DNA from: Laetmonice hystrix
Taxonomy: Eukaryota
Assembly (NCBI GenBank): GCA_965235115.1
Contig: OZ249436.1
Coordinates: 36,272,001 to 36,336,000 of the forward strand
Direction: 5' to 3'
Length of the DNA stretch: 64,000 nt
The notes under the pieces were generated by a model that was not told the DNA's origin, made no database searches, and saw only the letters and a program-made list of their open reading frames with translations. Made by a program: the position numbers and the translations under genes. Below, one piece after another: positions 18,701 to 24,700 of this stretch; position 1 is the stretch's first letter, and each line of letters opens with the position of its first letter.

Positions 18701-21700
18701 ATGTGTACGATTCCGTTATCTGTTTCCGTTATCCGTTTCCGATTCGATTGTTTATGCCTATCACAAGGGAAACGGGAGGTCAAACGACAGCAAAATGTAG
18801 TACCACAGATGTCCGCTAGGTGAAAAGGGAATTATTTGATGCAGGAGATGCCCCTGTGATGGGAACTGACCTCAAGAATATTGTCAGGGAGGTGGGGGCA
18901 TGGTCGGAACAGACCTATGCCATCAAAAAGTAAATATTCTCTCTATTCTTGTGAGGAACCAACACCATCGGTAAAGCTGTACCTGGATGTTTTATTTTAA
19001 TATTTATACTAGACAAAATATATAAAGTGTCCACGCTTAAACATATGCGGGAATTGGTGCTAATGGGAAATTACTGCTGTTTGAGGCGAAACGGAAACGG
19101 ACACATGGAAACGAGTCCAGTGGACGATTCCTAAAAATGGAACCGTGAAATGGAAATGGATTACAGAAACGTACACATGGAAACGCCACTTCACCCAGTT
19201 TTTAAAAATTATGGATATTGATTTCTTGGCTTATAATTAGTAGTCTAAATAGTAACGGCTAAAAGGTGAGAAACTATGCCTAGCAGTTAAAGTGTGTCGT
19301 CGCTCCCCAATATTCACACTGGTAGGGGTGATCAGACAGTGACTGGCTCGTAAGGACGCTGGAGTATGGAGCTTATAGGATGTTGCACACAGGCCATCCT
19401 CTCAGGCTTATTCCCCGCGTGTACATTTTAAACCTGCCTTCACCTGGTACTGCCTGTGACGTGTTGGAACTCCATATGAACCAATACGAGCATGCGGTGA
19501 ACAAGAGTTAATATTGCTTGCCTCCTTTGGTTACAGGTACATGTACAAATGTTTGACCTAGTCGTGTTATATAGTGTGACAAATTGCATGCCTACAGCCA
19601 CTGCTAAATTGTGTGGTACACATCAACGGCAATACGTAACTTTATCTACAGAAGTTTTCACTGTATACCTAGATTTTCTGTCTGATACAGCCTTTGGCAT
19701 TCCTTCAAATTTAGTAACAACAAATTATTGCAGCTGCTGAGCTTCTATTCGTTTTATTCACTTCTGAATCTATGTTCACAATATTGAGAAAATGTTCATT
19801 TCACATTTTATACTTGAAAGAAAAAACAACTTCCATGTACTAAAACCTGTGGTATACCGACTTATTGGTGATTGCATGGCGAGTGAAAATGTTCAACCAG
19901 ACTTTATGAACCACGAACCCTTGTTTTTAGAAAGTTATACAGTTAGTCAGTGCTGCCGTGGTTTGAGTGTGGACCTCACCTTTGTTGAACTGCAGGTGTT
20001 TTGGGTTATATCTCGTTTGTGATCCTGAGGTATGGTGTCATACATGCCTCGACAAAGTTTCACAGAGACTTGCTGGAGAATCTGCTCAAGTCGTCGGTGC
20101 TGTTCTTTGAGACGACCCCGCTCGGTCGGATTGTTAACCGTCTCAGTGGCGACATCTCGATCCTCGATAGCAAGATGGACGAGGTGCTCGAGGACTGGCT
20201 GCTGTGTGCCTTCGAGGTGGTGGCTATTGTGGTGGTGATCGGCATGAACACTCCCAACTTCCTGACTGTAGTCACACCTCTGGGGCTGCTTTACGCTCTC
20301 ATACAGGTACCAGTGAATTGGAACAAAAATTGTGCTTCAGGACTACTGTAGAACAACCAGGTTTTTGATAGGAATAATAAACGGATGTCAAGACGCTGAA
20401 TCCTGTGGGGGTTAACCAGTGTGTAGTGTATTTAAAACCTTGCGTCAGGCCTTCGAGTGGACAGTTTACATATCCCTGGATGCAGTTGTTGTACAGTGGG
20501 ACGACTTTAAGCCATTTGTCAGCCATTTTTTAAATCAGCATGCTACGTTCTTGCTAACACAGCTTTGTGGAGTAGTGTAATACTTGTTTGTCTAGTCTGG
20601 TATATGTCGCATTTGGTGTGCTCGGCTATGTGTTCTGGGATCTCGCTGGTGTTTTGCATGCATGACCAAAACAAATCTTTTCAAATGACAGTTTTTAATG
20701 CCTTTTTGTTTGACTGTCAAACTTCATTTAATTGAGTCGTACATATGTATGGGCACTTCTATTAATTTGCTTTGGTCTAACTTTAATATTATTTAGATTA
20801 AGTTATAACGTATTAGAATTTAGGTAGTGTGAACCACCCTTCACTATTGGCCCGTCGACTTGGGAGAGGCTCTGATTGGTTGATCTCAACCTGAGAATGA
20901 ATTAGTTAAAGGGGGTCAAACATGTTACAGTCATCAGCTATGTCTCAGTTTACACCATATAATTACACAAAATATATATTTACACGGGTGGTATTTGTGT
21001 GTAAGGCTGTCATTTCTTTATTTGTTTAGGGACGCCATGCACTGAGGACCCTGTAGGAAGGAGCAAGTCCTTGGGAACTTTATTCCAGTGATGACTTTTG
21101 TCCACCTTCTTGTAGAAAGGAAACATTCATGGTGTCACTAGACCAAGGCTGGTTCAGTCAGAGTCAGTCATGAATAGCATGCTGGAAACCAGATTAACAT
21201 TCAACACTATACGATGTTTGCCCTTGATTTATGCCATTGATGTATTAGAATTGGTTTACAGATCGGGTTTCTCCTAGATGATTTGGAAGTGGTCGTTAGT
21301 AATGTTTACTTAACACACCTTGACGCCGGGTGACACTGACAAAGTTTTTCAGACTGGAGTATCTGACCGCTGTCAGGTAACGGTAGTGGTAATCATGGAG
21401 GAACAGACAAACCCATGACAGACTGACCCTGTTGATCCTTCACCTACGACCTTACATACAACTATTGTGTTCACCGTCCACAGGTGTCTTTGTTTTGGTC
21501 GCCTCCATTGCTGTAGCTATCGGCCGGACAAGAGCATCACGGAGTCTGCACGGCAACCTTCTCACAAACATCCTGCACTCCCCGAGTAGCTTCTTTGACA
21601 CCACGCCCCAAGGCCGCGTGGTCAATCGCTTCTCCAAGGACGTTGATGTCATTGACACTGTTATCCCGCAGACGATGGTTTTCTTCATACTGACGTCACT

Positions 21701-24700
21701 GGGTGCCCTTGGTACCCTGTTTGTGATCGGCTACAGCACAGCGTACACTCTGATTGTTGTACCATTTCTGGCCGTTATATACTTCCTCATTCAGGTATTG
21801 CTGCCACGGGCTGGAATGCAAGGCTTCTAGTTCTAGACGAATGTCAGCACCATGTGTTTATTGGGTTTTGTTTGTCTTTCATCTAAAATGCTTGGTATCT
21901 ATTCTTATTTGGGTCGGTGTGATCTTACACTTGGCGACCACATGATGTGTACTTCTGGATGTAGTAACACTGACCTTGTAGGATTCTTCCTAAATGCTCT
22001 ACTGACTTAGTTCTTCTTGTCTGTCCTTCATGTCCCTCTGATTTGTTTTTGTCATCACAGCCGTCAGGCATAACCTCGACTTAGAAATCTTGGTGAACGT
22101 TGGAAACAATGGACTAAGACAGGCGTGATGTACTGTGATGTTGGGCCATTTAGGTCTCCAAGAACCAAGACATCCCCATCGTCCAAAACCCCTTTTCACC
22201 ATTCTTGAGATGAACAACATGTTTTATGGTAACATGTGTTCGCACAATCTGATGATGTGGTCTGGCCTCACCAACAAAGTATGACAGGAATATCTGTTCA
22301 GACTGTTCGATTGGAAGGCTGCAAGCTGCTGATTGAGAGAATGTTTTGATGAGATCCTTAAATACAGGAAGATACGTGCAAAAATGGCCTGGAGCTTCAG
22401 ACAAAAGGTTCTTTGAAGTGGTTGTCGGACATTCATCACTGCTAGAAGTTCCGATTCAGCTGCCCTCGTGGAAGGAACAGTATTATATCGGGGGGAGGGG
22501 GGCCGATCATGCGGTTGCTTGGGGCAGTACGCGTAAGTTTTGAGAAAAAAAAGGGGGGACCAAAGCATGGCAGAGCATGGAGCACGGGGCACCGGAACTT
22601 AGCGACCAGGGCATGGACTGAGATTGACGGGACCTTTAACGAGAGAGTGGATCTCAGCATGGTCGGCTGGATAGGCCACCTCTCTTTGTGAAAGGCCCAA
22701 TGTTTCCCTTGTATCGGTATAGACTATAGTGCATAGAAAGCTGGGATGAGTGTAGATTCAAGGAAACATTAATGTTAAACGAGTTCGGAGTTTCTAATGT
22801 ATAGGCTATAATTTTTAAAACGCTCTGGTGGCTGGTGCACACCCTACAGGGTCCCACCAGGTGGGAATGCCCTCCGTCACCCCGAAGAACCCCATCAGAA
22901 ATCCCCACGCTCTGCTTTTAGCCTTTAGTCCTGTAGTCCCCCTTACTGAATTCCTCATAGATATCCGTAGCTTGCCTAGAAAAGACCGGGCTATCTCTAG
23001 GTAAACAGTTTTGATTTACAAGACTACCCGTATTATTAGCTAGGAAAGTCGCAATGTCTTTCTTGACGAGGGGCTTAGCAGTACGAGCTCGTTACAGCCC
23101 TTAGGCTAGTCGACTTAAGCGGCTGATACACGCTGTGACTTACGATTATTTGTCACCGACTATTTTCGTGAAAAATCTAGCACTGCTAGATATCTTCCGA
23201 CCCGAGGATTCGTTGCCGACGATTGTTGTAGGGTATGATACACGTCACGACTTACGACTATCATGACTGTTTTTAGCGCTAAAAACTGGGTCACGACGAA
23301 AATTTATAGCGTGTATCACCCGCTTTACATTTTAAGAAACCAGTACACATGATTGCAGATTGCATTTTGTAAGTTAAGCGGGTGATACATGCTGCGAATT
23401 TTCGTTGAGACCCAGTTTTTAGCGCTAAAAAACAGTCGCCAACTATTTGTCGGCGACAAAAAATCGTAAGTCGCAGCATGTATCACCCGCTTAACTGGCA
23501 CGGTTGGAATCATTTGTAATGGTTGGTTGGTTGTGTAGCCTGCCACGAATTTCATGATACTCGCAAAATTCCCTAACTCGATCTTCGGGCACGAGTTTAA
23601 GAGAATTTGTGATGAAAGGTGGGGTAAAGGGTTGCTAATATTTTGGCTGCATGAACCTCTTATTATTACATAGTTGTAGTCAGTACTATTAAAGTTCACC
23701 CTTTTTTTACCTATCTGCTTTCCATACGGCCTGTAGGTGTGACGGTCTACATCGCAGCCTTTGCACTAGCTTACGGGGCCCTCAAAGCGTCCCGTCATCT
23801 TCATGCCAACCTCCTCCTCCACTGCCTCAAGTCCCCAATGACCTTTTATGACACCACGCCAATGGGACGCATCGTGAACCGGTTCTCTAAGGACGTTGAT
23901 GTCATCGACACCCTTGTGCCCCGTAACATTGAACTGTGGATTAAATGTACGGTTCACGTCATGGCCACAGTATTCGTCATCAGCTACAGCACACCCTACA
24001 TTCTCTTACTCATCCTGCCGCTCGCCGTCTTCTATTATGCCGTACAGGTATTCCCCCCCAAATTTTATTCTGTTTTTGGTCAGTTTTGATTTAGTTTAAT
24101 GCGAAATAAATCGTGGGGACTAACTAACACCGACCAGTGGATACTAATTCCCTGTTAATTGCATGCACGCAAGGTAGAAGGATTAGGGCGCTTTGATTCT
24201 TGACACATTGCAGCAGGTGGCGCCACCTTGCGTCTGCCATTCTGCCATCCCGTGCACACAGACACGGCAGTGCCATGACGGCATCGAGAGAACAGGCATG
24301 GATGTCATACATGTTTGACGTTGCATTGAGTAGGTGTTAAGATTCCAGAATGATATTCAGGCTGACCATCCTTGAATTCCTGACCTGAAGGATACGGCTC
24401 CTCACATTCTGGAGATTGTTGCAGCTCTATGCCATCAGCTCCGTGGCTGCCGTGGAACCCAGTTAATGTTTCTCAGCTAGGGAACACATACTCACTCGTC
24501 TTAATTAAAGACAGTTTTCAGCAGGACTAGTCCTGTGCCTGTGGACCTCTTGATACGGGAGATCCACAGAGTGCTGACAGTTAAACGTAACACGAGGTCC
24601 GCGTCAGCTACGGTCAACCACAACCAACACACAACCACTGCATACACCATCGCTATACTCCACTGCCGATTACTCTACCACACTCATTACTACTTGTTCT

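What the first reader, a model, noticed from the sequence alone, without database searches (positions are those of the whole stretch)
19321..24684. One downstream docking site, three competing selectors (candidate RNA switch for the 4-exon cluster)
Seen: the C/A-rich segment 24607-24684, downstream of the last variant, is complementary to one G/T-rich segment in each upstream intron. After 2a: GGTAGGGGTGATCAGACAGTG (19321-19341) with 24661-24679, and TGGAGTATGG (19360-19369) with 24653-24662. After 2b: AGTGTGTAGTGTA (20418-20430) with 24671-24684, AGTGGA (20456-20461) with 24659-24664, and ATGCAGTTGTTGT (20480-20492) with 24631-24643. After 2c: TGTAATGGTTGGTTGGTTGTG (23515-23535) with 24619-24642 (3-nt bulge). 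Each set is collinear and antiparallel. The 2b target overlaps both the 2a and 2c targets, so those pairings exclude each other. Inference: each pairing loops out the downstream variants, matching the 3' docking-site/selector model known for arthropod mutually exclusive clusters.
Basis: partly seen in the sequence, partly recalled or inferred. Interest (0 to 1): 0.85.

Follow-up and report, generated by a model that had tools for sequence, protein, structure and literature searches.

The report
MRP1 exon cluster, unproven RNA switch
An invertebrate drug-export gene (MRP1) carries four interchangeable versions of one exon, a known arrangement, but the RNA pairings proposed to choose among them are no stronger than ordinary DNA from the same genome gives by chance.

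Summary
The cluster is real: four 311-nt homologous exons in an MRP1/ABCC1 gene of a probable annelid. Each alone keeps the frame; any two, or none, give a premature stop. Annotated clam and amphioxus isoforms differ only in this exon, and 7 of 80 metagenome loci hold tandem copies. All six stated pairings exist at the coordinates, and the block is the best three-way partner in its intron. But 50 of 95 unrelated genome segments do as well, per-intron tests are null (Fisher p 0.50), no helix exceeds 10 bp, 2a and 2c pair at the same time rather than competing, and half the dock is an A/C tandem repeat. Homologues were too distant to test conservation. Competing pairings in MRP1 clusters, including amphioxus, are already in print, and the scan noted a similar case in another genome. 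Best reading: weak-site exon competition backed by nonsense-mediated decay; this dock is real with about 25% odds. Side result: variant 2a is older than this lineage.

The parts
17145..17363 (+). upstream constitutive exon (ends in phase 1)
17804..18114 (+). variant exon 2a, 311 nt; member of an old 'first variant' clade
19996..20306 (+). variant exon 2b, 311 nt
21484..21794 (+). variant exon 2c, 311 nt
23737..24047 (+). variant exon 2d, 311 nt; matches residues about 1028-1130 of mammalian MRP1
25933..26132 (+). downstream constitutive exon (GC donor)
24607..24690 (+). proposed dock: G-poor, C/A-rich, unstructured block, single copy in the genome search
24615..24637 (+). A/C-only tandem repeat (period 11, 2.2 copies) that forms most of the 2c-binding half of the dock
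   Evidence: Tandem Repeats Finder output printed
19320..19369 (+). proposed 2a selector (pairs 24653-24680); chance-level strength
20418..20492 (+). proposed 2b selector (three short helices); chance-level strength
23515..23535 (+). proposed 2c selector (pairs 24619-24642); the best of the three; lies about 20 nt 3' of a dispersed inverted-repeat element
17712..18506 (+). rival stem 17712-17735 with 18482-18506, enclosing exon 2a (13-bp core, -36.4 kcal/mol)
   Evidence: not above real background
18203..25669 (+). rival stem 18203-18233 with 25637-25669 (-41.2 kcal/mol), outermost of a nested set with 20615-20641/25560-25581 and 22827-22863/25389-25426
   Evidence: not above real background
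23112..23496 (.). dispersed repeat with inverted ends in the intron after 2c
18240..18407 (.). palindromic high-copy repeat (MITE-like) in the intron after 2a

Best explanation
This is a four-way mutually exclusive exon cluster of MRP1/ABCC1 that swaps about 104 residues of the second membrane domain. Shown: four homologous 311-nt exons, frame kept only by one-of-four, stop codons on double inclusion or skipping. Inferred: each variant is weakly defined (donors lack +5 G), so usually one or none is committed, with the choice biased by splicing proteins and timing; transcripts with two or none are removed by nonsense-mediated decay. Inferred: the C/A block is a low-complexity, open stretch that finds G/U-rich partners in any 1-2 kb of this genome, so the six pairings are incidental. 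RNA pairing may still help in this cluster (about even odds from the literature on MRP1), but these data do not single out this dock.
For: Frame logic: 4 of 4 single inclusions open, 6 of 6 double inclusions and the skip-all product stop early. Weak donors in 18 of 19 variant exons from 9 loci. Null energy tests. Longest uninterrupted helix 10 bp against 'at least 12' for most verified structures (PMC6027157, passage). Dock half is a tandem repeat. Selectors not alike. No similar block in the four-variant homologue L054 or in L053 (180 and 282 of 300 shuffles score as well). In C. elegans 14 of 19 non-3n clusters rely at least partly on NMD (PMC4165533, passages).
Against: The block is the top three-way site of its intron and the most C-over-G-skewed 80-mer among the 18 introns of this gene that I scanned. 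Such an 80-mer occurs in only 20 of 430 unmasked and 2 of 162 masked background segments. The 2c pairing beats 24 of 25 block shuffles. Downstream docks are reported for MRP1 clusters (PMC6071210; PMC8791459). My tests had no positive control. No splicing protein or NMD dependence was tested here.
Confidence: 0.55

Rival explanations
1. One reading: the C/A block is a downstream dock. Pairing with the selector after a variant loops out the later variants and brings that variant to the downstream exon; 2d is the default. The dock would be split: 2a takes the 3' half, 2c the 5' half, 2b spans both.
For: Pairings exist; dock open; best three-way window in the intron; selectors rank 1st, 1st, 2nd in their introns; net cofold gains of -21 to -22 kcal/mol; unusual base make-up; the model is published for MRP1.
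Against: Equal or better in 50 of 95 background segments; Fisher p 0.50; no 12-bp core and 2a plus 2c co-form; the best accessible partner after 2b is a different stretch, 20622-20658; no trace in L054 or L053, which are however too distant to align.
Confidence: 0.25
2. RNA structure guides the choice, but through other stems: a stem that encloses 2a (17712-17735 with 18482-18506) represses it, and separate nested docks near the 3' end of the last intron (25286-25676) pair with sites after 2a, 2b and 2c, as in multi-stem or bidirectional systems.
For: These are the strongest inter-intron duplexes (-31 to -42.5 kcal/mol). 4 hits at the strict cut-off against a mean of 0.77 in 107 block shuffles, 0 of 107 reaching 4. 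The arms I checked are single-copy. Two have 13-bp cores.
Against: 30 of 54 repeat- and exon-masked real control sets have 4 or more such hits, and 36 of 54 have a stronger best hit, so shuffles understate the background. No matching stem in L054, L063, L064, L066 or L073. The nested docks do not compete for one site.
Confidence: 0.2

Closest known systems
MRP/MRP1 mutually exclusive exon clusters with competing RNA pairings (Yue et al. 2017, RNA Biol 14:1399, PMC5711460; not held, seen only as a reference and through citing passages in PMC6071210, PMC6027157, PMC8791459; its annelid Capitella example is recalled, not read)
   Same: Same gene family, tandem exon array, proposed dock downstream of the cluster; Branchiostoma MRP is named as carrying such a code.
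   Different: Here the pairing is not above background, has no conservation support, and two of three selectors do not compete. The window's variants are not a lineage-private expansion, whereas that survey is cited as finding independent duplications across phyla.
3' docking-site/selector control in Drosophila 14-3-3zeta, Mhc, Dscam exon 4 and 9 (PMC4691838 and PMC6071210, passages)
   Same: Dock in the intron after the last variant, selectors in the introns after earlier variants.
   Different: Those were found as conserved elements and proven by compensatory mutations; neither is available here.
Annotated MRP1 isoform series of Mercenaria mercenaria and Branchiostoma lanceolatum
   Same: 4 and 7 annotated isoforms of equal length differ only inside this exon.
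   Different: Their variants group mostly by species and do not include the 2a type.
C. elegans mrp-1 exons 13A-D and NMD-backed clusters (PMC4165533, passages)
   Same: Four-exon cluster in an mrp gene; NMD clears wrong products in 14 of 19 non-3n clusters.
   Different: The nematode exons are 156 nt (3n), so NMD cannot police them; the exons here are 311 nt (3n+2).

Membership tests
MRP1/ABCC1 mutually exclusive exon cluster | Gene is an ABCC1-type transporter | tested here: met
   Exons match named MRP1 proteins along the gene; 2d matches MRP1/MRP2 structures
MRP1/ABCC1 mutually exclusive exon cluster | Tandem homologous exons of equal length and phase, one of which keeps the frame | tested here: met
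   Four 311-nt exons, 36-52% amino-acid identity
MRP1/ABCC1 mutually exclusive exon cluster | Same exon is variable in other animals | tested here: met
   Clam and amphioxus isoforms; 7 of 80 metagenome loci with tandem copies
MRP1/ABCC1 mutually exclusive exon cluster | One-of-N inclusion seen in transcripts of this animal | tested here: inconclusive
   No exon-exon joint among the 15 of 54 joints shown
3' docking-site/selector control | A site after the last variant is complementary to a site after each earlier variant | tested here: met
3' docking-site/selector control | Pairing stronger than control sequence | tested here: not met
   no positive control available
3' docking-site/selector control | All selectors compete for the same dock bases | tested here: not met
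   2a and 2c form together; only 2b overlaps both; a longer 2a arm can overlap the 2c site by up to about 12 nt
3' docking-site/selector control | Long, nearly perfect core (12 bp or more in most verified cases, PMC6027157) | tested here: not met
   Longest helix with the dock is 10 bp
3' docking-site/selector control | Dock and selectors conserved and covarying at syntenic positions | tested here: inconclusive
   Only distant homologues found; their introns do not align to the window
3' docking-site/selector control | Selectors resemble each other (duplication model, PMC6071210) | tested here: not met
   159, 299 and 134 of 300 shuffles score as well
3' docking-site/selector control | Disruptive mutations change exon choice and compensatory ones restore it | not testable with these tools
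   needs a minigene
NMD-backed mutually exclusive exons | Non-3n exons whose double inclusion or skipping gives a premature stop | tested here: met
NMD-backed mutually exclusive exons | Wrong products accumulate when NMD is blocked | not testable with these tools
   needs an experiment

The most novel reading that the evidence does not exclude
The C/A block is a real but split dock, an open low-complexity landing strip whose halves are taken by 2a and 2c separately while 2b spans both. It would then be a young RNA switch laid over an old exon array whose first variant (2a type) predates the split between this lineage, the hosts of L054 and L063-L081, and perhaps nemerteans, against the view that each phylum duplicated this exon independently.
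Probability: 0.12. Interest if true: 0.5.

Novelty: new member of a known kind. Interest (0 to 1): 0.22.

Why it matters
If the dock is real, it adds one more spiralian case to a mechanism already reported for MRP1, with a split-dock twist. The cluster itself swaps a membrane segment of a detoxifying pump (residues about 1028-1130 of mammalian MRP1; that this segment shapes substrate choice is recalled), so variants may handle different toxins. The practical lesson is that shuffled controls understate chance pairing in this genome, so such docks need close relatives or experiments.

Tried and rejected
Primary paper Yue 2017 not held under DOI, PMC id or PubMed id; its text and supplements, and fig. 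S15 of PMC8791459 on MRP1, were not seen and may already describe the annelid case. Seven literature searches listed no title or abstract opening on this cluster's intron elements in an annelid; most subscription papers are outside the library. Sequencing runs: no RNA holder listed; 4 runs, all one sample. Laying 3 of the 4: run X4 has contigs over 2d, the dock (24619-24801) and the downstream exon, and one record stops at that exon's end and goes on elsewhere, a hint of spliced RNA; 2a and most of 2b had no cover, which proves nothing. None of the 40 of 311 allele differences shown falls in the dock or selectors; I estimate about one expected, so this is uninformative. First metagenome scan with 2d found nothing. 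Homologue search with 2a found none at E 1e-12 among 152 candidates. Rfam: 7 sub-threshold hits, all on palindromic repeats, none at the dock. A lax alignment scoring ran in the linear regime and was replaced. An apparent likeness between the dock and L054 8612-8650 did not survive. The excess of strong stems over shuffles was dropped after real controls. No conserved pairing was found for the conserved block after variant 1 in the two-variant loci. Steric exclusion is unlikely (introns 1177-1942 nt) and U12 incompatibility was rejected by eye (all variant donors GT, none with the recalled U12 consensus). PMC7072590 gave nothing useful on residue 1089. No paralogue in the genome showed a second copy of this exon among 30 matches.
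Full report
Setting. The window holds one ABCC1/MRP1-type gene on the + strand, exons from about 3600 to 28600. Among 20 named proteins, Owenia (62.1% over constitutive exons, top summed score) and Liolophura (62.5%) are closest, then Capitella. 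I infer a spiralian, probably an annelid; an earlier scan note on this genome says the same (unchecked).

The cluster. Four exons of 311 nt lie at 17804-18114, 19996-20306, 21484-21794 and 23737-24047, each AG...GT, 46-60% identical in DNA and 36-52% in protein. Each alone gives an open frame between the flanking exons; all 6 double inclusions and the skip-all product stop early. The segment matches residues about 1028-1130 of mammalian MRP1. Four Mercenaria and seven Branchiostoma lanceolatum annotated isoforms differ only inside it. Of 80 metagenome loci fetched with the downstream exon, 7 carry tandem copies: L054 (four), L063, L064, L066, L069, L073 (two; L066 and L069 nearly identical) and L077 (five shorter copies). 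The cluster is real and of a known kind.

The observation. All six pairings exist as written. The block is open and single-copy in the genome search.

Against chance. A G-poor, C-rich open block pairs with any G/U-rich stretch: in a whole-window scan the top five partners lie outside the cluster and the 2c selector is sixth. With the dock fixed, no intron beats real, dinucleotide-shuffled or block-shuffled controls (27 p-values 0.13-0.85; 12 p-values 0.065-0.645 without G-U). With cofolding against masked real DNA: 34 of 72, 31 of 108, 26 of 54, Fisher p 0.50 (18 of 33 control sets scored). Letting the dock be chosen freely, 50 of 95 background segments offer as good a three-way site (19 of 21 stretches scored). 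The longest uninterrupted helix is 10 bp; most verified long-range structures have 12 or more (PMC6027157, passage). Positions 24615-24637 are an A/C tandem repeat. The 2a and 2c pairings nest and form together, net about -39 against about -44 kcal/mol summed (my arithmetic). The selectors are not alike. Limits: my scanners use simplified energies; the controls were unmasked and partly richer in G+C, though masked controls agree; there was no positive control, so weak true docks could fail these tests.

Other stems. An unbiased intron-by-intron scan finds stronger duplexes: 17712-17735 with 18482-18506 around 2a, 18203-18233 with 25637-25669, 19958-19985 (just before the 2b acceptor) with 25345-25371 or 24594-24614, 20615-20641 with 25560-25581, 22827-22863 with 25389-25426. 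They exceed block shuffles (0 of 107 reach 4 strong hits) but not real masked DNA (30 of 54). They stay a rival, not a finding.

Conservation. No intron of the window aligns to L054, L053 or the two-variant loci. L054 has no comparable block (best C-minus-G 10 against 29) and its best three-way window is weak and unlike the dock. These homologues are too distant for the test to count either way. The two-variant loci share a conserved block about 150-210 nt after their first variant with no conserved partner found. Same-sample contigs gave no usable allele or junction evidence.

Mechanism. Shown: frame logic, weak donors (18 of 19 variant donors lack +5 G), existence of the pairings. Inferred, 0.55: weak-site competition under protein control with NMD clean-up, the pairings incidental; NMD backs 14 of 19 non-3n clusters in C. 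elegans (PMC4165533, passages). Rival, 0.20: other stems.

Known systems. Downstream docks are described for 14-3-3zeta, Mhc, MRP1 and Dscam exons 4 and 9 (PMC6071210, passages and section 3.4; PMC4691838, passages; PMC10790352, passages), and for Branchiostoma MRP (PMC8791459, passages). The primary MRP paper was not held; that it covers the annelid Capitella is recalled. The scan noted a similar MRP1 case in another genome (unchecked). The cluster passes the test for an MRP1 exon array. The dock fails four of the seven listed features of the 3' docking model; one is met, one is inconclusive and one is untestable here. So it resembles that model but cannot be filed under it.

Side result. Variant 2a groups with the first variant of L054, L063, L064, L066, L073 (and L081) and with the Lineus protein P0021 (99/94; 100/98). 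2d falls with Capitella and the later variants of those loci, with weaker support (90/88). A single clade of the window's four variants is rejected (p-AU 0.005; the test was set after I had seen the trees; 103 columns, some long branches). So part of the array is old. Whether P0021 is the orthologue is open (53.5% over constitutive exons).

Verdict. Real cluster, known kind; pairings present but at chance level; switch unproven. Interest 0.22.

Noticed in passing
window 7712-7889 and 8544-8721: A second candidate mutually exclusive pair in the same gene: two homologous 178-nt exons (3n+1) in the first membrane domain.
   Followed up: partly
window 17804-18114; first variants of L054, L063, L064, L066, L073, L081; protein P0021: The 2a-type variant forms a well-supported clade and is first in the array in every multi-copy locus I placed on the tree, which points to an old, conserved isoform.
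   Followed up: partly
L063 1119-1168, L064 2006-2057, L066 3263-3304, L073 6680-6729, L081 2381-2433: A conserved intron block after the first variant, ending in a branch-point-like or STAR-protein-like motif (labels recalled); no conserved pairing partner found; not detected in the window or L054.
   Followed up: partly
alignment A1, last introns of 16 loci: A short A/T-rich motif recurs about 60-350 nt before the downstream acceptor in most of the 16 rows.
   Followed up: no
window 25573-25657: A possible 85-nt cryptic exon in the last intron, with a fair acceptor, a strong donor and a stop in the frame it would take after a variant; both of its sites are covered by the rival stems from after 2b and 2a. 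No transcript support.
   Followed up: partly
window 24119, 24143, 25271: The only ACTAAY motifs of the cluster region lie in the last intron, two within 100 nt after 2d; possible STAR-protein sites (recalled).
   Followed up: no
L077 234-3486: Five tandem copies of only the first two thirds of this exon, so a different exon structure was multiplied in that animal.
   Followed up: no
L081 1592-2740: This locus holds only the 2a-type variant between the flanking exons; loss of the second variant or a misassembly.
   Followed up: no
window 26133: The downstream constitutive exon uses a GC donor.
   Followed up: no
window 18689-19190: A dispersed element with inverted ends and internal short repeats sits in the intron after 2a.
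   Followed up: no
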